Shown piece by piece: positions 1-54,005 of a stretch of 64,000 nt of DNA. Made by a program: the position numbers and the translations under genes. Positions within the stretch are counted from its first letter, which is position 1; every line of letters starts with the position of its first letter. Under the pieces are notes generated by a model. It ran no database searches, had not been told where the DNA came from, and saw nothing but the letters and a program-made list of their open reading frames with translations. This stretch comes from Azolla caroliniana (Eukaryota; Plantae; Polypodiophyta): assembly GCA_043228905.1 (NCBI GenBank), contig JBHGNT010000008.1, positions 7,378,001-7,442,000 of the forward strand, in the 5' to 3' direction.

Positions 1-2200
1 CTTCTTGCTCTTGTATCTCTGTCTCTCTCGTGCTCACGTCTGTCTCTGTATGCCTTTCTCTTCTTCGATTTTCTTCTTTCTCTTCTTTTTCTCTCTTTCT
101 TCTTCTTTTTCTGTCTTTCTTCTCCGTCTCTCCATGTCTTGCATGACTTCTTCCATTTTTCCTCTCTTTCTTTCTCTTCTTCTCTGTTTGTGCTGCTCCA
201 TCCTTTCTTCTCCATCATTCTTTTTTCTTCCTTTTGCACTATTTATCCTCGTTCTATGCCTGTTTTTGCTTCCTCTCCTTCTAAAGCTCCATAGTATCCA
301 TCCCTCGGCGCCAGTCGCCGTCTGTCTCTGCCTCTGCAACCGTCTCTGTGCGGCCACTGTCCGGCGTCATCGTCTTTATTAGCCCTATCCGGCCTATCTC
401 TATTCCGGCCGTCGATCCGGCCGCTGTTCACCCTTCTATTCGTCCAATGTCTCTGTCCAGCCCTTTCGGTTGCCTCTCCGTCACTTTGGCCATCTCCTAG
501 CTGTTGTTGTCCGTTGTCCGGCCGTTTGTCCGGCCGTTGTTTGGTCGTTATCGTCAGGCATCTTCGTCGTCCTGCCGGCTCTGTCTGACTCCCGCCACCA
601 TTTCCGTTTTCTTCTCCGTCTCCAGCCACCAGTTTCGCCGTCTCTGTCTAGCACTGTCATTCATCTTCCGGTTCATTTGTTTATCTGGTCCGGTCTGTTT
701 TAGTCCATCCGGCCGTTCTTACTGGCTGTTTCTGGTTATGCGCCCAACCGCTGCTGCTCTGGCCGACGATCCGTCGTCATCCATCATTCCGGTCGTTTCC
801 GACTCTGTTGTCCTTCCACTCCGGCCGTCGTCAATTTCTGTTGCCTCTTCTGGCCTTCCATCTTTGTCACGGTTTCGGCCTTCCTCCAGTTGTCGGTGTC
901 TTGCGTCGTCGCCATCTGGATGTCGTCATTGTCTTCCCGTCCGCGTCTGCATCTCTATCTCCGTCTCCGGCCATCATTGTTCGGCCGCCTATCCATCTTT
1001 GTTACGCTTCTGCCGTTGTTCGGGCGCCTCCGTTCCTACGCCGTTCGGCCACTCCGACTGCTCTTCGGTTGCTCTTCGGCCCGTTCAAGTCCGATCAGGC
1101 TGGTTTTCCGGTAGTCAGTTCGGCTGTTATCCGGCTACTCCCATCTCTGGCCATTCCAGTCGGCTCCCGCTCCGGTCACTATTGCTTTTCTCAAGCTTTC
1201 CATTGGTTGGTCTCTGTTTGGCCGACTCCATCTTCGTCCAGTGTCTCTCCGATCTTATTTCGGCGTCATCATTGTTCCTGTCGTCGGTTGTCGAGCCGTC
1301 GCCATCGCTCCAGTCCCTATTTGGCCATTCCCGCCGTTCTGGATGTTGTCCAACTACTCCAGTCGCTTTACAGCCGTTGTCTGGCTATTCTAGCCACTTT
1401 GACAGTTAGTGTCGTCCTTGTCTTTTTGGTTGTCTCTCGCACCACACTTTCCTGCACACACACATTGTCGTTAACCACACACTTGAACATACGTTTGTTG
1501 CGTATCCTTTTGGCGACCACTAAGGCGACCCCCCTTTGGAGACGAAGTCGAAGACTAGGATGCGGCAAAGACATGGCAACGATGAAATGTGCGAGAAATC
1601 AAATGGATGATGTGCGGGAAATGGTGATGTTGATTAGAAGCCGTCGAGGTCGAGCAATCCCATCGTGGTCGCCAAAAGGTGTTATAGGTTTTAGGGTTAG
1701 GGTTAATGGTAATGATGATTATCGATGACGAAGATAGAAATGGTGGAATAGTGAAGATGGTGGAGAGTATGATGGTGAGAGAGATTGAGATGAAGATGTT
1801 GACAAGTGATTGAGAAGCATTACGGGGTGGGGGGTGGTGCCTAGAATGGCTCCACCCCCCTCCCAAGGGGGTTCAACGTTAAGGGGAGATAGAAGAGAGA
1901 GATGACAAGAGAGAGATTGAGAGAGAGAGAAATGGTTATTCATCATTCATTCCCCATAAGGGGGTTAAATAGTACAAGAGGGGGTAGATACAAAGGGGTG
2001 TAAGCCCCCTAGAGCATTCATACTGGACACTCACTCATACCTCCTCGTATCCATCCACATGCACACACGTGTGCATGTGTTCACATACGTATCGACTCAC
2101 GATTACATTTATGCCCCCTAAAAACACACAACAATCATCATGATAACATTTGACCCTCGCTCATCACATTGACTCTCCGTACATCTCGTACGGGGTAACA
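1..2200 (-). mobile_element. Element B: 5' part of a minus-strand LTR retrotransposon (5' LTR 1680-2200, PBS, low-complexity internal region running off the left edge)
   Basis: Segment 1680-2200 is bounded by TGTTA...TAACA. Just inside it on the minus strand is TGGCGACCACGATGGGATT (1656-1674), complementary to a tRNA-Arg 3' end. Sequence right of 2200 resumes inside element A's LTR. No recognisable protein domains in 1-1650. Confidence 0.7.
1656..1674 (-). promoter_or_regulatory. Primer-binding site (tRNA-Arg type) of element B
   Basis: Plus strand aatcccatcgtggtcgcca resembles a tRNA-Arg(UCG) 3' end including CCA and lies 5 nt from the LTR edge. Confidence 0.75.
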
Positions 2201-4425
2201 AACCACACATCTAGCATATAATCATGTATATACTTCCTCATTGTAGGTTTTAGCTAGCATCATGTGCATAATTTCTCCCTTGTATTATTTACACTTGGCA
2301 CATGCATGCGTAGCTATTGCCTACATGCTCTATTGTATCACATGTGTGCAACAAGTATGCATGCCACTTTGTATAAATAGTTGAGTTCACCTTGAAGGAA
2401 TTCAAGGTGAACAACGCCAGTCATGGACATATCAATCTAATATTCTCGTTTCGCCCAATCTTGTCTCCTTAATCTTCATCTCTATCTTTATGCTCATGTG
2501 TCATTCCGTCATTGCTTCGTCGTAGCCTCATCATCCGTGCTCCGTCTTAGTCCACGCTTGGTGTGTCCGTGACAATTTGTTCACCTTCCAACTAGAAGCA
2601 TCACCCGTCTCCGTCATCGCCCTTGCTTCTAGAGTTACCATCGTCACCGTAGCATCATCAACATCGCTTCATTTCCTATCTTCCTCGCCGTTTCTATCTC
2701 CTAGTTTTTTCTCATAATTTTCATTGGTTTTTAGTTTCTCCTCATCATTGTCTCTATTTTTTAGTTTCTTTCCCGTTCGTGTTCGTGTTCCAGTTCCCAG
2801 TAAGGGCAACACAAGGCCGTTCACTCCTGTTGGTGTTCATGTTCAAGTTCCCAGTGAGAGCTGCATGGTCGCTAAAGCTCATTCGTGTTCGAGTTCCTAG
2901 TGAGGGCTGCATGGTCACTCACGCCCGTTCGTGTTCGAGTTCCCGGTGAGGGCTGCATGGTCGCTCACGCTCGTTCGTGTTCGAGTTCCTGGTGAGGGCC
3001 GCATGGTCGCTCACGCCCGTTCGTGTTCGAGTTCCGTGTGAGGGCCGCATGGTCGTTCACTCCTGTTCGTGTTCCAGTGTCCGGTGAGGACTGCACATGG
3101 CCGCTCACTCCCATTGGTGTTCATGTTCGAGGTCCCGATGAGGGCCGTATGTTCATTCACGCCCGTTCGTGTTCGAGTTTCCGGTGAGGGCTGCATGGTC
3201 GCTCACGCCCATTCATGTTTGAGTTCCCGGTGAGGGCCGCATGGTCACTCACTCCCATTCGTGTTCTAGTCTCAGGTGAGGACCGCACATGATCGCTCAC
3301 TCCCGTTGGTGTTCGTGTTCGAGTTCCCGGTGAGGGCCGCTTGGTCGCTCATGCCCGTTGGTGTTCGAGTTCCCGGCAAGGGCCGCATGGTCGCTCACAC
3401 CCGTTCGTGTTCGAGTTCCCGGTGAGGGCTGCATGGTCGCTCACTTCCGTTCCTGTTCCTGTTCCTGGTGAGGGCCGCATGGTCACTCACTCCCGTTCGT
3501 GTTCCAGTCTCCTGTGAGGACCGCACATGGTCGCTCACTCTAGTTATTTTTCATGTTCCACATCCCGGCGAGAACTGACATGGTCGCTCATGCCCATTGC
3601 GGTTCATGTTCCAGTTCTCGGTGAGGACCACACATGGTTGCTCACTCGTTCGTGTTCCAATTCTCGGTGAGGACAACATGGTCATTCACACCCGTTGGTG
3701 TTTGTGTTCCAACTCTCAGCGAGGACCGTTCCAATTCCCGGCAAGGACCACACATTGTCACTCATGCCCCTTGGTGTTCATGCTCCTCATGAGGACCGCA
3801 CATGGTCACTCACACCCGTTGATATTTGCATTCTAGTCCTAGGCAAGGACCACACATGGTCGCTCATGCCCGTTGGTGTTGAATACGTCGTCTTGTCTAG
3901 GGTTCACAAAATACATTGGAGGTGATCTAAGATTTTCATCAACAATATGCCCTTAAGCTGACAAACGATTTGGGAAGGCATCGTTGGAGGGGGAATAATG
4001 TCAAGATTTGAACTCTTGACATGACCATGTTATAATCGAGTGTTATGTGTTAACCACACATCTAGCATATAATCATGTATATACTTCCTCATTGTAGGTT
4101 TTAGCTAGCATCATGTGCATAATTTCTCCCTTGTATTATTTACACATGGCACATGCATGCGTAGCTACTGCCTACATGCTCTATTGTATCACATGCGTGC
4201 AACAGGTATGCATGCCACTTTGTATAAATAGTTGAGTTCACCTTGAAGGAATTCAAGGTGAACAACGCCAGTCATGGACATATCAATCTAATATTCTCGT
4301 TTCGCCCAATCTTGTCTCCTTAATCTTCATCTCTATCTTTATGCTCATGTGTCATTCCGTCATCGCTCCGTCGTAGCCTCATCATCCGTGCTCCGTCTTA
4401 GTCCACGCTTGGTGTGTCTGTGACA
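2201..4425 (+). mobile_element. Element A: non-autonomous LTR retroelement (TRIM/LARD-like). 5' LTR remnant 2201-2574, 3' LTR 3999-4425
   Basis: 2201-2574 matches 4052-4425 with about 7 mismatches. The 3' LTR has TGTCA...TGACA ends and is preceded by a PPT (GGAGGGGGAATAA, 3986-3998). TATA box at 2372 and 4223. No coding domains inside. Confidence 0.85.
2770..3885 (+). repeat. Tandem array of ~46-bp units (occasional ~54-bp variants), about 22 copies, inside element A
   Basis: Repeating consensus GTGTTCGAGTTCCCGGTGAGGGCCGCATGGTCGCTCACGCCCGTTC; copies degrade toward both ends. Confidence 0.9.
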
Positions 4426-4726
4426 CTTTCTGGTGGAGCCTCATGCAGTCGTCATATAGCTCCGGTCATACATACTTGAGCTTCACCTTGCCTTTCACTC
4501 TGGTCACTTTATAGACGGACAACCAGTCTACATCACTAATCAATTTGTCTGTTAGAACAACATGGTCAATACCCTCTAGCGACAGACCATATATGTTGTT
4601 AAAGTCCTCCTTTGTCTTGCAAAACTTTGCAAAGTTCAGCACTCAAGGATATGGAGGAACGAGCCATTTGAAATAAAAAATCAATACATGTTACCTCTGC
4701 TCTACTGGGACATGTGTATTTAGAAC

Positions 4727-32871: not shown

Positions 32872-34279
32872 ATGGAGGGAGGAATCGAGCTTCCACCAGC
32901 GACCATTTTGCTTGATGAAGAAGGTGGATCAGATCTCGACATTACGTTGTCCCCTGAGGCCAACCGTTTCTTATCGGAGGAAATCGAACGTCTACGGCGT
33001 ACCTCCTTCATATGTAGGTTTCTAGCAGGTAGACCAAGTCGGGGAATGGTTCGGGACATGTTCCAGGTGGCTGTGATGGAGAACATGCCTGTGATCAAGA
33101 GTGTTAGGGGTTTAGGGAAAAATTCTTCCACATCGAATTAGGTAATGGCTCGCTGGCGCAACCATTGGTCGAGCTCAAGGTACTCGAACTGAAGTACGGC
33201 AAGGTGTTGGTCCAGCCATGGTCACCAGGGTTCAATCCAATTGAAGAGTTACGGAAACTCAACAACCCTAGGGTGATCATCGCAACATTTCCCGGCCTCC
33301 CTCCTCATTTGTGCCATCTGCTCCCTCTTTTTGGTGAACAAATAGGGAAATAGGGATGATATGTCCTCAAAAAGTGTCAATGGCAGACATAGTTGCGGAG
33401 GTGCCCAAGTTGCGCATCTTGGTGCCTTCCCTCCATGGACTTCCATCAAGGATTAGACTCTACTTTAAGGAGCTAGGTCTCACAGTGGTGAAAGTGGTTT
33501 ACGAGGGACTCCCGGGGCAGTGTTTCATTTGCAAACAGACAGGACACCTAGCTAAGGCATGTCCTCGCAAGACTGGAAAGGGAAGCTCGGGACCTCGACC
33601 CTCGGGCAAAGTCGGGACAACCAAGGGTGACGAGGCTCCTTGGATACCCGTTAAGAAGAAGGGGAAACTTGGAGGCCTAGGTGCATCCTCTTCCACCCTT
33701 TTTCATGACCACCCCTTTGAAAGAAGTCCCGCTACCTTGTCACCAACAAGCGCGGACGAGCAACCCTTGAAACGGGTAAAGATCCTCTCCGGGAGTGTCG
33801 ATGCACCCGACCTACAGGTGAGAGCTACCAACAGATTTACACTTCTTCAAGGGTTAGGGGATGGCGACCCAGAAGCGTTGGCAACAATGTTGTCCCCATG
33901 CGACTCCTCATGCCTTCCCCCACGAGAGCCTGAACTTGTGTTCTCTACCCCGATGGAGATGCAACCCCAACTCGTATCGTCCACCCAGGAAGAGAAGTTG
34001 GCAAAGCCCCCCCTCCCGCTGGAACGTGAATGTGGTAGTGGCCTCAGATTAGTGAAATCGTGGATCCGGACGGGCAAGCTCAAGGACAAGGGAAAGGGTA
34101 AGATAGGCCGACCAACACCTGGTTTGGCGACGACTCTCTTAGATAGAGGGATGCAAGAGGTGCCACCGCTTCGGAGCACAAATGTATCGCGGGATCTATT
34201 TGAAGCGGGCCGGGAACGACCGGTTGAAAATCCCACAGGGGATTTGCAGCCAGCTGTGGAGACCATACCCCCGAAATAG
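32872..34279 (+). pseudogene. L1 ORF1 (DUF4283-like region plus CCHC zinc knuckle), disrupted
   Basis: ICRFLAGRP, VQPWSPGFNP, CFICKQTGHLAKAC; frameshift near 33120 and stop at 33351. Confidence 0.85.
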
Positions 34280-34343
34280 GTGTTAGGTTGCCCCATAACA
34301 TGGGGATCGGCCCGAACATGGGCGTCAACATCACCGCTTTCGG

Positions 34344-37300
34344 ATGAGGATCCTAACGTGGAATGTACAGGGCCTTGGTGGAGGCCGACAACACCAAGAG
34401 TGCAGAAGACTTCAGGAGGAGCTAAATCCCCTTAATATAGGGGGCCATATTGACATATTGCTTTTGCAAGAACACCACCTCTCGCAAGAGCGAACTCAGA
34501 GCTTAGTAAACCCCTTGTCGGGTGGGTGGACCACATGGTGGTCAGCTGCACAGGGTGACCTCCACCGAAGAGGAGGGGTCTGCATCTCGATCAGCGATAA
34601 GGCCCGATACGAAATAACATCATCTAGCACGTTGGTGGAGGGTCGGGCCTTATACGTGCTTCTGAAATGGAATCACCTACAAGTTGGGGTGCTAAACATT
34701 TATGCCCCTAACTCAGCCCTCGAGAGAGCAATCTTTTGGAGGATGTTAGAGACAACATTACCTGATGTCGAGGCTTGGGTAATGGCAGGTGATTTCAACA
34801 TGACTGAACACCTGGGAGATAGGAAAGGAGGGACCCAGAGGCCTATTTATGGTGCGGAGCTGGATTCATGGGCTTTCCTAATTGGCAAAATCGGGGTGAA
34901 GGATACATGGGGCTCTTCCCTTAGGAGAATCTCACATTCGTTGCACTTTTCCAGAGCCGTCGAGAATGCTAGGGGCGGTAGTCTTACACGGCTAGATCGC
35001 ATATACATCAGCTCATCCCTCGAAGAGCTTGGGGGCGCCTTTGCTATCTTGGCAGGTCTTAACTTTTCAGATCATCAGCCAGTGAGACTAGACCTTAACC
35101 CACCCAACGATAGCAAGGGCAGTCTCAATGTGAAGATCCCCACAAAGATCATGAAGAGTGAAGAGGTGAAGGCCGGTTTACAAAGTATATGGCAGGACAC
35201 CATGGGCAGTGAATCAGCCAGCGAAGATTTGCAAAAAAAATTGGCCCTCTCCTCCTCCTTACAACAGGAGACCAAGTGCGCCCTCCAGTAGGTTAGAGCC
35301 ATTGAAACAAAATTAAGGAAGGCTGTTGCGGCAGCGCAACGGCTGCTACAGGTAGACCCTGGTTGCACTTGGTCTAGAGCTAAGCTGGAGGAAGCAAAGA
35401 TGAAGGTACATGAAAGGACTTTGGAGAAGAACCGAATGTTGTTTCGAAGAAATGCAGCATGGTGGGCTAGAAAAGACGACAAGGTCAACCGACATTTCTT
35501 TCACTACAAGGAACCCAAGGGTGGTGGTGGACGTATACAAGGGTTGCGAAAACCAGACGGCTTGATAACGGAGGACAAGATTGAGATTCCGGAAATGGCA
35601 ACACAATACTATCGTGACCTCCTCGCACCTATGCAGGTGAGGCAACACACGAAGCTAGTTGATCGCGTGTTGTCTTACATTCACCCCAAGGTAACCCAGG
35701 CGATGGAAGTTGTGCTCGATAGCCCCATCTTTCGTTTAGAACTCTCGGAGGCGCTTAGGGGATTGCGAAGGGGTGCATGCCCCGGCCCTGATGGTCTCTC
35801 ACGAGATTTCTTTGAGATTCATTGGGAATGTGTCATCCCGTCTTTGGAAGCTGAAGTTCAAGAGATTTGGTCCTCAGGAAAGATGCCAATTGGTTTGGCT
35901 GAGGGGATGATATATCTCATCCCCAAAGCGTTAGAGCGAAGCCTAGAGTTGCGCCAGTGGCGTCCAATCACAATCCTTAACACGGCATACAAGATACTCG
36001 CTAAAGTCCTAGCTCGACGATTAGCAAGCTTCTTACCAGACATCATACATGACAATCAAACTGGATTTGTCAAGAACATGTGTATCTTTGATAATGTGTT
36101 GCTTCTTTGGGAAGCTATGGCATTGGCCGGCCGCTCCGTATCGAGCTTGGCTATTCTGATGTTTGACTTCGAGAAGGCCTACGACCGGGTGTTATGGCCA
36201 TTTTTGGAAAATGTGATGCGAGCTTTGGGCCTACCTCAAAAATGGAGGAATTGCACTTCTGCACTCTATCGGACAGCTACGAGTCGCCTTCCAACTACAA
36301 CGCTCAGTGAGGCAAGGTTGTCCCCTAGCCCCATATCTCTATCTCTTTGTAACCGAGGCTTTCTCTGCCTACTTACAAGCACCAACCAGCGGGCTGCGAG
36401 GATTGCCCATCCCCAATGCGACTGAAGATTTGTTGTTATCTGAATATGCCGACGATACGATTCTTTTCTTGCAAGGTGATGAGGAGAATTTGCAACGGGT
36501 TGAACATATTGTCGAGGACTTTTGTCAGGCGGCTGGTTCCAAGATCAATTGGAATAAAACCCAAGGCCTATGGTTCAGCGAACAAGAGAAACCAAGATGG
36601 CAACCCCATGCCGATTTTATGTGGGTCCCTGATGGGACAACGTTCAAGTACCTTGGATTTACGATGGGGAGATCAATCCCCAAGGGAGCGCAATTGGCCC
36701 ACGTACAAGCCAAAATAAACAGGAAGTTGACCCAATGGAGTAGATCTAAACTATCCCTCGCTGGTAGGGTCCTTGTTGCGAACCAAGTGTTGCTCGCTAC
36801 CATGTGGCACTCAGTCTCCTGCTGGATTATGGACCCTGCAAGTCTGCACGCGATTAAGGCTGCCATCAAGGGGTTTATATGGTCAGGTAAGGACAACCCA
36901 AGGGCTGCTGCCAAAGTGTCATGGTGTTGGTTAACGCAACCGCGGGCCAAAGGGGGGCTTGGCCTCATAGACCCCTTAATGCAGAGTCGTTCATTGCTAG
37001 CTAAAATGGTGGTTCGCTGCCTCCTGCCAAGTAAGGGGTGTTGGAAGGTACTACTTCGCAACAAGCTGCAAGCAGGGACTCCCAAGTATGGTAGGCCTTG
37101 GCCCGACTCCTTGAATTGGTGTTGCATGAGCGGAGTCCCACCCAAGCTAGCTTGCCATCCAGAGGACAGGGTCGCGAACTCCATCTTGCGGGCATTGTGC
37201 CATCTATGACAGCATTTGGTCAAACACACCCCGGAGACATTGACCGAATGGACTAGACAGCCACTATTCTGGAATCCCCACGTGCGAACAAGTGACGACA

Positions 37301-38591
37301 CGATGTTAGGGCAACTTAAGGGCCTAGCATGGGGAAAGCTGGCACAAACATGCCTCCTATCTATAGACGATTGGAGACACATGGCTGTTTCAGGAAGAGC
37401 CCAAGAGGACCTTTTCCCTCCCCCCAAGGGAGCTACGAAAATGCTGAGACTGATAGTTGAGGCAGTTGACAAGGTTCCGATGGGGGAGGCGAGAGAACTG
37501 CATGGTTCAGTCTCTTTGACGAGGTTGGAATGGTCAAGTCGCTAAAGGGTGTGAGCGGATCAGGGAGAGATATAGTTTTTGGGGACAGTTAGAGCAGGGG
37601 CTCTTAGCACCCAATCCGAGTGGTGGCACAGGTTGACAACATCTGGAAGACAGACCCGGATATTGCTAAGGTGGAACCCCATTGGAGGTTAAGGGTATAT
37701 GGTTGTCACCCCCTTGTCGATCTGGATTGGGACCTAGGGGATTTCAGATGGAAACATGATGATAGACTCCATCACTTCTTCGATTACACCACTAAATTGG
37801 GTCGGACTTTGCAGCTACAGCTAGGCAACCCCCTTCGCAATGGCTGGCGAAAATTGGGCATCCCCGATGAGGCGCTCATTACCTTTTGGAAAGGTCTCTG
37901 GCGTCTCCACATGCCTGAAAAGATCAAGCTCTTTTGGTGGCAGATCGGTCATAATGTGGTGCCCGTTGGCGAATGGCTAGATAAACGCGGCGGCCCGTTA
38001 GGCTGCCCACTGTGCTCTCAACCTATTGAGACTCTAAGACATTGTCTGTGGGATTGCCCTCAAGCTCAAAAGATCTGGGATAGAGTGACTCGCCTCCTTG
38101 CGGCATGTGAAGTTGAAGGAACAGCCTCGTGGAGCATTGTGGCATGGATTGGTCACTCGATCGAAGGGTGGACGGACACCATCAATGCGGATAGTTGGTG
38201 CTATGTATGCACGAGAGGCAAAATCGTCAAGATCCGTTTCGAAAGAGGCTTGCAGCCCGCATCCCCTAGGTTTCCAGAAATCTGGATGCTGATCGCAGGT
38301 TTCACCTTGTGGTATATATGGAAAGCGCGTTGCCTCAAGGTTTTCCAAGGTACAGTACGGCCCCCGGAGGAAGTGATCATGGACATATGGTTCGCGATTA
38401 TCAGCTGCCTACGAGGGCAACTGGAAGAGATTTGCAGCCACTCCAACGACGTGATCTCTGCCCGGTTGCGCTTTTGGCAGAAATGGAGGAACACGCCTAT
38501 GGTGATGCAAGGCGGGAGTGGCCCAAGGTGGAATTACCAGCCCCCACGCTGGTTGTTTCCTACTCACCTGCCACCCCTCTCTTCGTTGTAG
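34344..38591 (+). pseudogene. L1 ORF2 (APE endonuclease, RT, zf-RVT), disrupted
   Basis: MRILTWNVQGL, LQE, GDFN, RLDRIY, SDHQP; DFEKAYDRV, RQGCPLAP, YADD, KYLG; CPLC...HCLWDC. In-frame stops and frameshifts present. Confidence 0.92.
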
Positions 38592-39755
38592 GCCCCAAGA
38601 GCCGACTTGTACTAGGCAACATTGAAGGGCATCGCCTTAGATATAGGTAGCTTCTTACATTAAGTTAGGCCGCAAGGCATTGTAAGTAGGCTCATCTTCT
38701 TTTACTTGATTGGAGGAAGACTCCCCGATGTGTGTATAAGTCTCCTTGTAGACTCTCTATGTAATAATCCTTCCTAACTAATGGGAAAGTAGCTTCATTT
38801 TGGGAAAAAAAAAAAAAGAACCTTGTTATGGCCCTTTGTACATAGCCAATGCCCTTTTTAGCTTTAAGAGAGATTATCTTGTTTTAGCTTTTTATCACAC
38901 ATACATTTTGATAGAAGTACATATACTCTTCCAAGATTGATCATGTGATAACGGAGCTCATTTAATTAACATTGCTTTTTTTATTCTTCCAAAAATCACT
39001 CAAATAAGTATGACTATGATAAATCATCAACACCCCACAAAGTTGCTTTTCAAAAGTAGAGCAAGCAAATTGTTACATTCTCCTAAAGTTGTAACTTCAA
39101 GAAAATATTTATTATCATCCATATGTAGATTTTGGAGGCCATATGTTAAATCTAATTCCTTGGTAAAAAAAAAGGAACATCATTTACCAATAGATAGATG
39201 CTTTGTAACTATAGATAAACAATCTATCTCTACAAGTAGAATGGTAGTAGAGGAAAGTTTTTTATTTATTTGTAATCAGGACTTCATTGAACCACACATA
39301 CATTACGAAAAGAAAGACCCAAGTATCATTTAACACCCTATAAATACATGCCAAAGGTTTGCATTAAGTTCAAATAGTGCAAGTTACAACCTAAACCAAG
39401 ATTATTTATGGTTAAAGTCTTTATCCGAGCATTGAATTCCTAGCTTTTAGCCAGTAATAACCTCCTCTTACTTATCAGTTATTTGGAGTCCCTGTTAAGA
39501 AAAATAAACGATCCTACCAATAAACAATGTTTGGGAATTTCAAGTTTGTGAATTGGCATATTGTAAATTTAGCAAATCCTAAACATGTTTGAATCATTCA
39601 CAATTAGCTCATTACATTAGTATTAATATAATGTCCTTTGTTCTTAGGACTTGTGTAAGATGGCAAAACATTGAACAAGAACATCCTTCACTTCTTCATT
39701 AATACATTTAATTAAGATGTGCACACTCTTCAATCTTTTTTCAATTCATTTAAAC

Positions 39756-42533
39756 TCAAGAGATTGCAAGTTGTTCTACACTTTCTGGTGAGCAAACACT
39801 TCCATTCCAAAGTAATAGAGAGGTGAGATAATTCACCCTCTCTGTTGGATGGAAAGCATCCCAAAATACATATTTATTAGCGTCGGGGCAAGCCATCTGT
39901 GGAAGAACACAAGTCATCCATCCACCATATTTACCTGCACCGCAACATGCAGAGTTTCGATTCTCGAAACCTAGTGCCAAGAAGAAGTTGAATTTTATAT
40001 CAAAGCTACATAAAAAATAAATTGAAATTCTTAATCAAGCAAAATACTTCCTTGAATAGATCCTATGTCCACAAGTTCAAGTCTAAATCAATTACATGTC
40101 GATATCAAATTCTTTGTAAAAATCATTTTCTTTTTTACCTTGAGATCTTATATCAAAGTAGATATTATGTAAACAAATCAACATAGGGGTAAAAATAAAA
40201 TTTTGAGACTACTATTGAGATGCATGACTTTCTACATTTTCCGAACCTAATATTGATTAAAGTACATATGATCATGCTTATATACATGCAAACATTTAGC
40301 AATGGGGATTTTATGATATCTCTTTCGGATGAGATTAGAGCAAGGCGACCGATTGATACATACATATGGGTGTGAAACCATTTTATAATGTATTATAAAT
40401 GAAATTGATCTTAATAGACATTGAGAAAATCCTTGTTTCTACTGCAATAACTAAAACAACTCACCCAAACATGCTTCAGGAAAATGTTAAAAAAAAGAGC
40501 AGCTTTACCATATTCTTTTGCATTCAAAATGATGTCGTAAACGCCTTTGAATATATCACAAAATATAATTCTTGAGTCGGGGAATTCGGACCGGAGTCGT
40601 AAAGTCAACAAGTTAAGGTTATCATTATATTCTTGTACTAATGAATTGATTTCCGGAATGCATTCTCCAACTGAACTATTATACGAAGACAAGAAGTTTG
40701 GAGCACATCCGATCGGACCTATACCAACCAACACAACTTTCTTCATACCTGCTCCAATGAGGAACTGCATAGAAGCAAAACAATTAACAATTTTTATAAG
40801 AAACACATACATTCTCTGTGATAAAGCACACAACCACGACATGTGTGAGAAGCGATGCACATCTTTATTGAATATCATAGAAGTAAGCTATATATTTTGT
40901 TTAGGGTTGTAACCTAGTGATAATCTCATGCAAGTTTTTACAATCTCATGCACTAGGCTTCAAATCTTACATATGCATTCCTTATGAGATTACCCCATGG
41001 AATGTAAGGGTTGAGTGTGTGACTATCTAGTCTCCGCGAGACAACCTAACCAACTAATCCACAATCAATTGAGCTATTTCTTTCCTTTGTATGTATGTGT
41101 ATCCCACAATCAACAACATTATGAATGAACAACACTTCAAGTTTTCCCCTTCAGGAAACCTTTACACTCTTTCTTTGTCTGACTGTATTTGGTTTGAACA
41201 CAAGACATGATGACATGCTCAGACAATAGGTTTCCTGGCAGAGACCAGAAGGTCACATTCCGCAACGGCATCTAGTAAAGTTGGGCATCCCTGGGTGCAT
41301 AGGTTAGTAAAAACTTGGCTTACTACTATGGTACACCTTAGGACGATATAATTGTGGCCCTAATCGTCATTTTTCCATAATCGTTATGATGGATTTCTAT
41401 CACATGTTGAAGTTTCCCATTAGTAACACAATGTAGCACAAAAATAAATAAAAAGTTTGTGTGTGCATAATTTATGCATGTACTAACATTACAGTTTTTC
41501 ACTAACATGGTAAGTGTTTACTAAATGCAAGGAAATAAATCATCAACACTTACTTTTAAATGGGTTCCCAAGGTTTCCAATAGCATTCTGCTGAATTGTC
41601 TAGGATTCTGTTTTTCCAAGACACCGGATACATTGCGAAGGTAGTAATGAATAAAGTCATTATTGCCAATGGAGAAATAGAACAAGGACCGTTGTACGGT
41701 TTCTTTTGTATAATGCTGTCCCAAAATGATGGACATTTTTGCCTCTGAATCTGAGAACATGCCTAGTTGTTCAGTGAGAGACATGTGCTGGCCCTGGATA
41801 GTAGTTTTCAAACTTTAGGAGAGTTTTGTACATTAAAAAGCTTATCTCCACTCTTTTGCAGCATAATGCCACTTGAAAAAAGAGAGTATATTTCCTAGTT
41901 CTTACAAGATCAGAACCCGATTCTGGAAGTATTCCAGCACCCGCCGAGGCAAAGTTAAGTCCTTTCGTCATGTTCGTGACATTTGGGGTTCCAAGCACAG
42001 GTGGAACCATCGGTAAACCCATGTAAAGTGCTGGGATTTAAAATAATGCAATGTGAGAAACAAGACACTGCCACAGCTGAAGCATGATGTGAAGTGATTG
42101 CCTTCAGATATTATGTACGAGACGTAAGACATGGCCACGATTGATCGGTTATAGATAGTTGATGTGGTTAGCTGGTGCAGAAAATTGAACTTCTAAAATG
42201 GAATGTATAAAAATGATGGTGCATCAAGCATGTGCATTGCAATACTAAGGCTTTGCATGTTTGAGAAAAGGACTTACCAAGATAATCCACACTTATTTTT
42301 CCATTACTGAATCTTCCATTTGGCCGATGGTCCACGAAATCTCTTCCATATGGTGGCATATCAGACCTTGCAAGGGTTACTAAGTAGTTATTGTTTCCAC
42401 AATCAACTGTAGAGTCACCAAATATATATAGACCTGGAACCGTAGGCTTAGGTGCCGAATCCGAGACCCCAACATCAGCATATAAGAGAATGCTCAGTCC
42501 AATTAGCAACCCCATCATTTCTCTTTGTCTCAT
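39756..42533 (-). CDS. GDSL esterase/lipase (SGNH hydrolase), 5 coding exons
   Basis: Exons 42533-42278, 42030-41906, 41793-41554, 40764-40509 and 39970-39756 have GT-AG introns in consistent phase. Signal peptide, FGDS, GRFSNG, NFASAGAG, IGNND and WDAFHP catalytic motifs. Confidence 0.95.
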
Positions 42534-43912
42534 GTGAAGTCTTCTTCTGATAGCAACTGGAAAATGATGACCAACAATAACATCATCATTTTACTTAGTG
42601 ATCTCAAGTTCAAACGAACATCCTAGGAATCTTGAAAAAAATGCAGTCAATTAGATGAGATAGTAGTTATTTCTTCGACATAGTCTGTTGAATTATCATT
42701 GAGCTCACCTCTAGTGTCTTCATTCCAAAGGAGTTTATACAATGTTTTCAGCAATATTATCACAGATACAAACTAGAGACTAGGCTTCAAAAGGATGACT
42801 AAAACAAAGACAAACATTGTTATGATGTGCCTTTCATGAACTGTAATCCACCATTGATGGAATACTTCTAAATTTCCTATCTCTCGGACAATTGTTAGAA
42901 CCTGCTAGTCTTGGCTACATAATCTTGTTGACCTCGTGTTAAATAGAACCCTTTGAGAGAAAGAAATTTCCATAATTGAGAAGGCATTTACCTCTTATAT
43001 TCGTCTTAACGGCATCTGCAGCTTGATTGGTTACCTCCCTTCCTATATCAAAATCCCAAAATCAATGTCTAGCAAGAATTCGACCCATAGATATTTTGGA
43101 TCATGATGCTTAGGCTAATCATAGAGACACTTAGAAGAATGACAGTTAATCACAAACCAACTCCATAAATACATTGTACGAGTGCCAAGCATCCAAGGTG
43201 TTGAACGTGTGATAACAATTCCTTCTCTTATATGGCACACACAATACCACATTTGTGGTTTGATGATCTTGTGGCTTCCCATGATTATAATGTAGCTCCA
43301 CCACAAATGGCTAACTTGTATACACAATCTACACCATTGGTGAGGATGTAAGTAGCTCAATCAATGATTGATAGAGCTTTGTTATTCTTCAAATAGATGG
43401 GCAGCTAATGCTATGGTTCTTGTTGCACATCCTTACAATAATCTAGTAAAAGGTTCTATAAACCTAATCACAGTCCTTGATGAGCTTTCCAAAGAACTTT
43501 GACAATTTGCAAGTTTCTCATGGTCAGTATGGAAGCCCTCCATAGGGATAATGTATACAAGAGAAATAATGTTTTATTAGTATGGATGAATTCACTACAG
43601 TTGGACTGCTTTACATATGATTGCTCTTGTTTTTAGAAGCAACAAGATAATCTGAAGATGTTGCATGCTCCCGAGGAGCCCGACTGTATATCCTCGAGGT
43701 GCAAGATGATCCACTTTGTCTGATATGGATGTAACAGATTGTACATCATCTTTTGGAAAATTGTTGTCAGCCCAAAAAGCAAGATCAGCTACAAATATAT
43801 ATAAAACATGTGTGCATGAAACATGCTTATGTTTACGTCCACAACATATATATACCAATACACTCTCATACATACACACTGATGTATGTATGTATGTATG
43901 TATTCAGGTCCA

Positions 43913-51400: not shown

Positions 51401-54005
51401 CTTTTCTTACTTGTATAGTCTTGCTAGTAGTGGAGTGTTTACCGATGCTCAACCTAAAGTACCTTCTGCAGTACGGCTTTGCTATCTATGCAGATCGATG
51501 GAAGAAACTTCTTAAGAGTACATAATGCAACAACTGTACGATATATAGTTGAACTTGTTTTTGGCTTGAAAATGTTTAGAGAGAAAAGCAGCTTAATATG
51601 TTACTTTAGAGCTGATGTTGGCGAAATACTTAAGTTATTGTCTAGTGAACCATGCGTGCACTAATCTGGAATGTGCATTCAGTCCACAAATCCAGTCAAA
51701 GATAAAGGGAAGTGACTGGCATGCATTGGTATGCCATAGGAACAAATGCATGGAGCTGTGCAGTGGGTCATTCCCATGAATGCGTACTATCTATGTAGAT
51801 ATTGGTGCATCATGGTTGGTGCAAGTTCCCATTAGAAAAAAAGTTACAAAGCTGTAGTTTTTATGCATTGATGGATGAACTGTTGTACAATGGCACCAGT
51901 ATTTAAAACTTGCTCTATCCAAAGATGACTAATGCTGATGATCATGTTCTCATGTATGTCGGGTATTATTGAGTATGTTGGGTACAAATTCGTACTTGAA
52001 ACACAGTTTATTATTATTAACCTTCTAAGGCTTCAGTTTCTATTAATGGATTAAATAAGTTGTTGCACTAGAATGGAGCTTACTTTATCTTAGATGGCTT
52101 AATTTGATGATTTTGTTCCTCATTATGTATGACACTTGAGTGTCTAGGTATTGTTCATCTTGTTGGGTACATGCTTATGATAGAAACACAACTCTTTTTA
52201 ACCATTTATTTCTCTGGATGAGTTTAATGCCTACTTCAGAATGCAACTTGCTTAATCCTAATTGTGATTGCAGTGGCTGGGGATGCATCTAACATCGATA
52301 TACCTGCTGTTTTCATCACAAGAGAGTCTGGCTATGTGCTCTCACAATTTATAGATGATAAGGATGTGAGATTGTATCTGCTACCAGCACTAGAAAGTAG
52401 TGCTTGGCCAATTCTTGCGATTTCATCGATTTCTTTGCTCACACTTTCAGCTTTATTGTCTACATTCCTTTTTGTCCGGAGGCAGCGGCGTAGACGGGCT
52501 ACATTACGAATGCTCCAAGAACCCACTGGGTTGAGTGATGAGGAGGTTAAAGCTCTTCCGACAGCCATTTACAATAAAAAAGACATTACAAGCCCTGAAA
52601 CTTGTACTATTTGTCTTGAGGAGTTTGTGCCTGGAGATAAGCTTCGAATGTTGCGATGCAACCATGGTAAGAATATTGACAACAATCTATTTTTGTGGAT
52701 GATTTATTTATTTGATATTGGATGAAATGGCTACGGATAAATTTCATATCGCATGAACTGGAGAAACATATTGATTTTCATATCGGCAACTGTCTATCCT
52801 TTGGGATTATATGCATTTGACATTCGATTTGATTGATTCTGGTAATTGATTCTTCAACGTAATTTCATATTCACAATAATCTATTTTTTGTATGATTTAT
52901 GGTTTTGATATTTGATATAAAATGGAGTAACATATTTATTTGGTATTGACAGCAACTTGTCTTTTTGAACAATTTACATTTGATATCTTTTCAATTGCTT
53001 TGGTTACTTGTGTTTTGTAGAAAACCGATTCATATATTGATTTTGGCAGGTTTTCATGTAGCTTGTATTCATCCATGGTTGATTCGGAGACCCTTCTGTC
53101 CGGTTTGCAAAAGGGATGCATATGAGAGGGGTACTGAAGGAGACCCTTCTGAAAGTACTCATCTGATTTCAATGAACTGGCATGCAGATTCAAGTGGATC
53201 TGAAGCTCGAAATGTGCCCAACAACACTCCAGGTAGGTCTTGTGATGATATCTATGAGTTTTTTTATTAGAATGGTTATGCTTTTCTTTTTAGTTGCATA
53301 GGAGGGAAGGAACAATTATATTTTGGGTCTCTTGATCAGCATGGTTATGTTGGTTTAGTTGTGAAATTAAAAGCTCAAATGAGAATGTGGTTTTGGGTCT
53401 CTGATCAGCGTGACATGTTTATTTATTTATAGTTGCAAAGGTAAAGCCCAAGAGAAAATGATGTATATTGGATATTTGATTAGCATAATTATGGTTTTTT
53501 CATTTATAAAATTAAAGCCCAAGAAAATTATATCTTGGTTGGGTTCTTGACATGAATATGATGTTTTTGTTGCAAAACTGAAAACCCAAGAATACTATGG
53601 AAATTTTTCTTTTCTTTTAACTACGAAGTTGAAAACTATGAGAATGATATTTGGGGTTTTTGATGAACATGCTATAGTCACAAAATTAAAGCAAGCCCAA
53701 GAGAGAAGGACATTTTGGGACATTCTTTTTCCTTTGGTTGCAAAACTAAAACCAAGAGAAATATCTTTCTGGCTCTTTATCTGCATGACTCTGTTTTTTC
53801 TTGTTTTATTTCGAGGACTAATTACAGAATTGAACCAATGACCGCGAGGTTGTCAAGCATAAGCCATTTTATATGTTCCAATGTATGTATAAAGGGAATG
53901 CTCTGGCTTCATTGCATTATCACAGAATGCTTTATTTCCTTGTTGCTCTTGTTTCAAGATCTGATTATCTTTCTTGCTTTGTTTATTGCAGGTGATATTT
54001 GCTAA
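48466..54005 (+). CDS. RMR: PA-domain/transmembrane/RING-H2 protein (RMR-type vacuolar sorting receptor / E3 ligase), 5 exons
   Basis: Exons 48466-48736, 50891-51118, 52274-52666, 53050-53232 and 53992-54005 have GT-AG introns in phase. PA domain (LVERGICSF..KVQNAQDAG..AAIVYDN, IPAVFI), TM helix, RING-H2 CTICLEEF...CNHGFHVACIHPWL...CPVC. Confidence 0.92.

What the first reader, a model, noticed from the sequence alone, without database searches (positions are those of the whole stretch)
2372..2587. Non-coding LTR element that appears to self-prime (Tf1-like, tRNA-independent)
Seen: the PBS position of element A has no TGG tRNA complement. Instead TTGTTCACCTT (2577-2587, 2 nt past the LTR) is the perfect 11-nt complement of AAGGTGAACAA (2404-2414). 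That stretch starts 32 nt after the TATA box (2372) at a C/A initiator, the likely +1. In addition, GTCATGGACATA (2420-2431) can pair with the U5 end TGTGTCCGTGAC (2562-2573; 12 bp, two G-U), stacking next to the primer helix. Known: S. pombe Tf1 primes with the first 11 nt of its own mRNA annealed to the PBS, helped by R-U5 pairing. Inference: this is a non-autonomous plant retroelement using that mechanism, presumably parasitising a self-priming chromovirus such as a Tcn1-like one.
Basis: partly seen in the sequence, partly recalled or inferred. Interest (0 to 1): 0.85.

Follow-up and report, generated by a model that had tools for sequence, protein, structure and literature searches.

The report
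Self-priming non-coding fern retrotransposon
A high-copy, protein-less jumping gene, most likely of a fern, has a primer site that pairs with 11 bases of its own end repeat instead of carrying a tRNA site, and a sister subfamily has changed four letters on both sides while keeping the pairing, so it likely starts its DNA copy with its own RNA, a trick already known from yeast Tf1 and predicted for some plant elements.

Summary
The element is a non-coding LTR retrotransposon (5' LTR 2201-2574, truncated by a nested insertion; 3' LTR 3999-4425) of a high-copy family; a host gene points to a fern. 16 of 22 linked copies pair at all 11 positions, 2 at 10; 4 hybrid LTRs pair at 7. The switch is one evolutionary event. 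A decayed chromodomain end before the PPT points to a chromovirus parent (weak in the window's own copy). No helper was found and the transcription start is unmapped. Self-priming is known (Tf1) and predicted in plants for Tcn1 and copia TAR; this scan found such elements before in other genomes. New member of a known kind; the fern host and natural compensatory swap are the points of interest.

The parts
2201..2574 (+). 5' LTR, lacking its first 53 nt because another element is inserted at 2200/2201
   Evidence: 7 mismatches in 374 nt against 4052-4425; the missing start is nowhere else in the window; 41-56 Logan contigs per run leave at 2574 into unlike flanks in 3 listed runs
2372..2379 (+). 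TATA box, 32 nt before the primer in both subfamilies
   Evidence: sequence
2385..2412 (+). 12-bp hairpin (2385-2396 with 2401-2412, loop GGAA) whose 3' arm holds primer nt 1-9; only a shorter, weaker stem in the other subfamily
   Evidence: -18.6 versus -8.0 to -12.1 kcal/mol
2404..2414 (+). predicted self-primer, R nt 1-11 (AAGGTGAACAA); +1 inferred, not mapped
2420..2435 (+). R arm of the 16-bp R/U5 helix
   Evidence: 94% of cells paired; one both-sided change in one copy
2558..2573 (+). U5 arm of the R/U5 helix, also the right attachment end of the LTR
   Evidence: this side was fixed by my search pattern, so its conservation is not independent
2577..2587 (+). primer-binding site TTGTTCACCTT, complementary to R nt 1-11
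2588..2763 (+). non-coding pyrimidine-rich leader shared by both subfamilies
2764..3880 (+). array of 46-54-nt tandem repeats replacing gag-pol
   Evidence: 14.9 copies of a 46-nt unit at 2835-3538; no Rfam match at 1450-4500 other than one chance hit outside the element
3881..3960 (+). decayed, internally deleted end of a chromodomain-coding sequence
   Evidence: negative in Pfam and weak for this copy itself (4.4 bits, E 2.6)
3986..3998 (+). polypurine tract GGAGGGGGAA plus TAA before the 3' LTR
   Evidence: sequence; conserved in family copies
3999..4425 (+). complete 3' LTR, 427 bp, TGTCA...TGACA
   Evidence: contigs arrive at 3999 from unlike flanks in 4 of 4 runs

Best explanation
This is one copy of a non-coding LTR retrotransposon family, likely derived from a chromodomain-bearing Ty3/gypsy element, that likely primes minus-strand DNA synthesis with the first 11 bases of its own RNA. 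Steps: (1) transcription would start at 2404, 32 nt after the TATA box (inferred); (2) nt 1-11 can pair with the PBS and R nt 17-32 with the U5 end (pairing shown in sequence and by covariation; formation in the cell inferred); (3) a helper element's RT/RNase H would cut after nt 11 and extend the 11-mer (inferred from Tf1); (4) plus-strand synthesis would copy the primer into the PBS, which explains why the PBS changes with R and not with the leader next to it (pattern shown, cause inferred); (5) Gag, RT and integrase come in trans from an autonomous self-priming chromovirus, probably of the Tf1/sushi-Tcn1 type (helper not found). The U3 hairpin of the window's subfamily would mask the primer in upstream-started transcripts and in the second copy of R at the RNA's 3' end (predicted only).
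For: Exact bounded 11-mer and shuffle test. Two subfamilies linked on single contigs with four both-sided changes: 4 of 11 pairs, 99.4% of cells paired in 15 selected rows, 95.5% in 20 distinct rows including hybrids, 0 of 500 shuffles reach the covariation score. 16 of 22 linked metagenome copies pair at 11 of 11, 2 at 10 of 11. In 8 of 14 beta copies the 50 nt after the PBS are 92-100% identical to the window although the PBS differs at 4 or more of 11. Both variants of R and PBS show in Logan contigs of several organisms. None of 27 family-leader junctions starts with TGG. Beta folds the same way (z -3.67). Solo LTR with 5-bp TSD (L002). Chromodomain profile of 73 proteins ranks the alpha 3' ends first among 23,076 fragments (E 0.013-0.017).
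Against: The covariation is a single alpha/beta switch, not many independent events. 4 of 22 linked LTRs (L003, L016 twice, L064) join a beta primer to an alpha PBS (7 of 11). No RNA reads: +1 and cleavage are untested. The third duplex of the Tf1 'pretzel' was not found above chance (no p below 0.05 in 21 rows). No autonomous helper found. The chromodomain remnant fails Pfam (0 of 3 frames), scores weakly in the window's copy, and is not detected in beta copies. A PCR survey found no Tcn1-like clones in ferns (PMC2864245).
Confidence: 0.85

Rival explanations
1. Self-priming is right, but the helper is a Ty1/copia element of the TAR lineage (or another non-Tcn1 element) rather than a Tcn1-like chromovirus.
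For: TAR elements are predicted to self-prime (89% of 203) and share the 5-bp TSD; Tcn1 was not detected in ferns; Selaginella Galahad elements also carry a group I chromodomain but group with Galadriel; beta copies show no chromodomain remnant.
Against: The alpha subfamily ends in a chromodomain-like sequence directly before the PPT, in sense orientation, as chromovirus pol does; no copia remnant was seen inside any family copy.
Confidence: 0.2
2. The PBS binds a host RNA in trans (a half tRNA or other small RNA) and the match to R is a structural by-product of LTR hairpins and inverted ends.
For: The window's U3 holds a second near-copy of the PBS (9 nt, 2385-2393), and the R arm of helix 2 resembles the LTR's left end in beta copies, so internal repeats abound; the host's tRNA set could not be tested.
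Against: In beta the PBS matches R at 11 of 11 but the U3 arm only over a short stem; a host primer would not make R change in step at the same four positions; helix length and position match Tf1.
Confidence: 0.08
3. The signals are inherited relics: the family now spreads by DNA-level tandem amplification or recombination and no longer depends on priming.
For: Tandem LTR-internal-LTR arrays and hybrid LTRs on high-coverage contigs (L009, L016, L064); no RNA holder confirmed.
Against: Dispersed insertions with diverse flanks, a solo LTR with TSD, 1.9% LTR divergence in this copy; tandems are also a known product of Tf1 cDNA recombination (PMC11042837).
Confidence: 0.07

Closest known systems
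Tf1/Tf2 of Schizosaccharomyces pombe and the Tf1/sushi group (PMC7175516, PMC4600332, PMC5341516, bioRxiv 10.1101/2022.12.06.519325; passages read)
   Same: First 11 nt of the predicted transcript complementary to the PBS just behind the 5' LTR; a second duplex between R and the PBS-adjacent U5 end; chromodomain at the end of pol; tandem elements sharing one LTR.
   Different: No coding capacity; third duplex of the three-duplex 'pretzel' not found above chance; start site and cleavage not shown; extra U3 hairpin over the primer in one subfamily.
Plant chromovirus clade Tcn1 (REXdb, PMC6317226; PMC2864245)
   Same: Self-priming-type PBS by the same criterion (at least 10 bp, starting 0-5 nt after the LTR), 5-bp TSD, non-seed plant host, chromodomain remnant.
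   Different: Reported only from mosses and club-mosses, not detected in ferns; this element has no RT, so clade membership cannot be tested; 2.2-2.3 kb instead of 5.5-9.4 kb.
Ty1/copia TAR lineage (Fourf, Houba, Osr-1; PMC6317226)
   Same: Predicted self-priming in plants, 5-bp TSD.
   Different: Copia domain order and no chromodomain; nothing copia-like inside this element.
Non-autonomous plant LTR elements (TRIM/LARD sensu PMC13570524; Cassandra-type tandem arrays)
   Same: Non-coding, LTR-PBS-PPT only, high copy number, subfamilies, tandem and reshuffled copies.
   Different: The 115 sugar-beet families were described with tRNA-derived PBS motifs (the screen used a tRNA database; the word 'priming' does not occur); this family has none.

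Membership tests
LTR retrotransposon, non-autonomous | Two direct LTRs with TG...CA ends, PBS position and PPT | tested here: met
   5' end of the 5' LTR lies outside the window
LTR retrotransposon, non-autonomous | Target-site duplication | tested here: inconclusive
   left flank of this copy is outside the window; one family solo LTR (L002) has a 5-bp TSD, the only TSD among the loci screened
LTR retrotransposon, non-autonomous | No gag-pol, multi-copy | tested here: met
   45 of 94 metagenome loci match the element; 1140-1748 contigs laid per run
Tf1-type self-priming elements | PBS complementary to about 11 nt in the 5' LTR, no tRNA-type TGG site | tested here: met
Tf1-type self-priming elements | The complementary stretch is the 5' end of the RNA | tested here: inconclusive
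   TATA+32 and C/A in both subfamilies; only contigs, no raw RNA reads, were available
Tf1-type self-priming elements | Duplex between R and the sequence 5'-adjacent to the PBS | tested here: met
   16 bp, 94% of cells paired; U5 side fixed by the search pattern
Tf1-type self-priming elements | Third duplex with the sequence 3'-adjacent to the PBS | tested here: inconclusive
   candidate duplexes exist but none below p 0.05 against shuffled leaders in 21 rows
Tf1-type self-priming elements | RNase H cleavage after nt 11 and extension of the 11-mer | not testable with these tools
   needs biochemistry or cDNA end mapping
Chromovirus clade Tcn1 | RT-RH-INT phylogeny | not testable with these tools
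   the element has no pol and no helper was recovered
Chromovirus clade Tcn1 | Chromodomain at the end of pol, before the PPT | tested here: inconclusive
   remnant in alpha copies tops a chromodomain profile search and fuller copies keep the W-x-G-Y core; Pfam negative; not detected in beta
Ty1/copia TAR | Copia pol domains | tested here: inconclusive
   no copia remnant inside the element, but there is no pol to classify
tRNA-primed LTR elements | PBS starting with TGG 0-5 nt after the LTR | tested here: not met
   0 of 27 family-leader junctions; half-tRNA priming against the host's tRNA set was not tested (no genome held)

The most novel reading that the evidence does not exclude
Ferns carry an unreported Tf1/sushi (Tcn1-like) self-priming chromovirus lineage whose non-coding parasites have reached high copy number across several related species; primer and PBS are inherited as one unit through primer copying, hybrid LTRs break just behind primer nt 11 as self-primed strand transfer predicts, and one subfamily has gained a U3 anti-primer hairpin that makes priming depend on the exact start site.
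Probability: 0.3. Interest if true: 0.62.

Novelty: new member of a known kind. Interest (0 to 1): 0.42.

Why it matters
Self-priming has been shown experimentally only for fission-yeast Tf1 among the papers read; for plants it is a prediction from complementarity. A natural four-base compensatory swap between sister subfamilies is comparative evidence that the pairing is used, and a 200-nt RNA with two natural alleles is a ready substrate for testing it. It also points to self-priming chromoviruses in ferns, where a PCR survey found no Tcn1-like clones, and shows a class of abundant non-autonomous elements that screens based on tRNA-derived PBS motifs would miss. It is not a new mechanism.

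Tried and rejected
No own genome held, so no copy count, host tRNA comparison or helper search in the assembly. Pfam on the three frames of the 3' remnant: 0 families. Homologue search with the remnant: 1 candidate, none scored; representative search: 2 hits, both repeat proteins unrelated to retroelements, rejected. Viral-contig scans: 6 chance loci for the LTR pattern, 0 for two chromodomain patterns. tblastn with two chromodomains gave only E 1.4 for the remnant. The gypsy elements in the window and in L068 have TGG-type sites and no chromodomain and were rejected as helpers. ARAGORN 0 genes; Rfam 1 chance hit outside the element. Third pretzel duplex not above chance. 6 of 51 LTR ends have TGG within 5 nt (L002, second LTR of L013, L041, L067, L075, L077); each continues differently and none is followed by the family leader; L002's is its TSD; they were read as flanks and not tested against tRNAs. 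Literature searches for Tcn1 in ferns or a self-priming non-autonomous plant element found no such description; two searches were swamped by unrelated papers and subscription journals are not held, so absence is weak. Levin's primary papers were not held. Additional files 1 and 3 of PMC6317226 (per-element PBS table, sequences) were too large to read and bear on whether Tcn1 or TAR sites resemble this one.

Full report
1. The observation. AAGGTGAACAA (2404-2414) is the exact reverse complement of TTGTTCACCTT (2577-2587), with a mismatch on either side, so the helix is exactly 11 bp. It starts 32 nt after TATAAATA (2372) at C/A. The R/U5 helix is real and extends to 16 bp; a fold from 2404 gives both helices (-42 kcal/mol, z -3.8), separated by a 5 x 3 internal loop. 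In 5000 shuffles of the LTR none held an 11-nt complement to the PBS window.

2. Anatomy. The 3' LTR is 3999-4425 (TGTCA...TGACA), preceded by a PPT. The 5' LTR (2201-2574) lacks its first 53 nt because another element is inserted there, so this copy's TSD cannot be checked; the LTRs differ at 7 of 374 positions. The interior is a pyrimidine-rich leader, an array of 46-54-nt repeats and 120 nt before the PPT; no retroelement protein. A neighbouring host exon is closest to fern proteins (named hits Ceratopteris and Adiantum, 65-67%). No genome is held.

3. The family. Twenty public runs of several organisms hold part of the stretch. Four were laid on 2201-2730: 1140-1748 contigs each; none of the 40 best-supported substitutions shown (141 not shown) lies in 2371-2439, 2557-2574 or 2576-2593; loose ends reveal a second allele of both R and PBS. 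A metagenome scan with the U5 end gave 94 loci, 45 of which match the element. They fall into two subfamilies: alpha (window) and beta, with R(1-11) AAGGGATTCAA and PBS TTGAATCCCTT, again at TATA+32. Of 27 LTR ends followed by the family leader none starts with TGG; 22 also hold R on the same contig: 13 pair by 11 Watson-Crick pairs, 3 by 11 pairs with G-U, 2 by 10, and 4 by 7 (L065, a further 11 of 11 beta copy, missed the filter; some rows are probably the same locus from related samples). Pair counts: 4 of 11 primer pairs change on both sides; 99.4% of cells paired in alignment A1 (15 rows, hybrids and five other rows left out) and 95.5% in A2 (21 rows, 20 distinct, three hybrid rows included; L039 and two duplicate L016 rows left out); slid controls 30-46%. 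This is one evolutionary switch, not four events. But it is confined: U3 and U5 differ between subfamilies, while the 50 nt behind the PBS are 92-100% identical to the window in 8 of 14 beta copies. The PBS follows R, 170 or more nt away, and not its neighbour, as expected if it is copied from the primer (inference). Helix 2 is kept (94% paired) but its U5 side was fixed by my pattern and is also the integrase end; it shows one both-sided change in one copy.

4. Results against. Four LTRs (L003, L016 twice, L064) have beta U3 and primer but alpha R12-U5 and PBS. They are on contigs of 9-34x coverage, three of them internal LTRs of tandem arrays, and L009 resolves the same U3 into a wholly beta LTR. 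They may be misassemblies, recombinants in the shared R segment (hybrid tandems are known for Tf1/Tf2, PMC11042837, passages), or real strand-transfer products, whose crossover just behind nt 11 would fit self-priming; the data do not decide. The third duplex of the Tf1 pretzel (10.1101/2022.12.06.519325, passages) was not found above chance. No RNA reads were available.

5. Parentage. Alpha copies end, before the PPT, in a broken frame resembling the end of a chromodomain, and Logan loose ends show that some copies keep the W-x-G-Y core lost here. A profile from 73 non-redundant chromodomains (102 of 120 proteins selected by their integrase region) ranked four near-identical alpha 3' ends first among 23,076 fragments (15 bits, E 0.013-0.017; next 0.098); the window's own copy scored 4.4 bits. 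The seed protein L101 had been found with a pattern holding the same tail motif, so the test is partly circular; Pfam confirms the seed as Chromo after a Tf2-type SH3 domain. Pfam on the remnant itself and two protein searches were negative. A chromovirus parent is likely (about 0.75); its clade is untested.

6. Mechanism. Most likely Tf1-type self-priming with proteins supplied in trans: nt 1-11 anneal to the PBS and are cut off by RNase H between bases 11 and 12 (PMC7175516, passages; PMC5341516, passages). Shown here: pairing potential, covariation, position, non-coding status. Inferred: start site, cleavage, helper, role of the U3 hairpin (strong in alpha, weak in beta).

7. What is known. 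Neumann et al. 2019 (PMC6317226; passages, sections 15 and 20, Additional file 5) predict self-priming for 12% of plant elements surveyed: Tcn1 (83% of 1500, mosses and club-mosses only) and copia TAR (89% of 203). Novikova et al. 2010 (PMC2864245, passages) found no Tcn1-like clones in 26 ferns and horsetails; a repeat survey of two Tmesipteris ferns does not mention Tcn1 (PMC9916801, passages). Also read as passages: PMC3350952, PMC4600332, PMC13570524, PMC6934838, PMC13469084, PMC8282616; PMC4659654 and PMC2206039 gave only an unrelated reference. My searches found no description of a self-priming non-autonomous plant element or of Tcn1 in ferns; coverage is incomplete. This scan has noted similar non-autonomous self-priming elements in at least 7 other genomes (unchecked notes).

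8. Verdict. Observation confirmed, interpretation supported. It works like Tf1 (0.85); membership of Tcn1 is open. New member of a known kind; interest 0.42, up to about 0.6 if a fern Tcn1-like helper, the crossover position and the hairpin switch are confirmed.

Noticed in passing
window 1650-2200: The element inserted into the 5' LTR: an LTR-like segment 1680-2200 (TGTTA...TAACA, judged by its ends only) preceded by a tRNA-3'-end look-alike ending in CCA at 1674, where a PPT would be; a TGG-type site also lies near 1512. Fits the 'tRNA site in place of the PPT' lineage noted earlier in this genome.
   Followed up: no
window 24626-5354, minus strand: A gypsy element (437-bp LTRs, 96% identical) with a TGG-type PBS whose 3' LTR is preceded by a non-purine-rich stretch; a second gypsy element (about 17200-7800) with an intact 987-aa pol frame is nested in it.
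   Followed up: partly
L009, L016, L064, L005, L010, L061: Tandem family units sharing single LTRs, some mixing alpha and beta parts; several on contigs with 10-34x coverage against about 2x for others, so collapsed assembly is possible.
   Followed up: partly
beta LTR left ends, e.g. L061:50-62: Beta LTRs begin with a 12-nt stretch that resembles the R arm of helix 2 and forms a long terminal inverted repeat with the U5 end.
   Followed up: partly
window 3999-4021: The LTR start is a palindrome (TGTCAAGA...TCTTGACA) and holds a reverse-strand stretch like a Pol III box B (box B pattern recalled, not tested).
   Followed up: no
L101, L102: Two bacterial MAG contigs are eukaryotic Tf2-like chromovirus pol genes (RT, RNase H, integrase, chromodomain), i.e. 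contamination.
   Followed up: partly
window 33338-38591, 39700-42590, 52228-52725: An L1-like LINE (endonuclease, RT, zf-RVT), a GDSL lipase gene and a PA-RING E3 ligase exon.
   Followed up: partly
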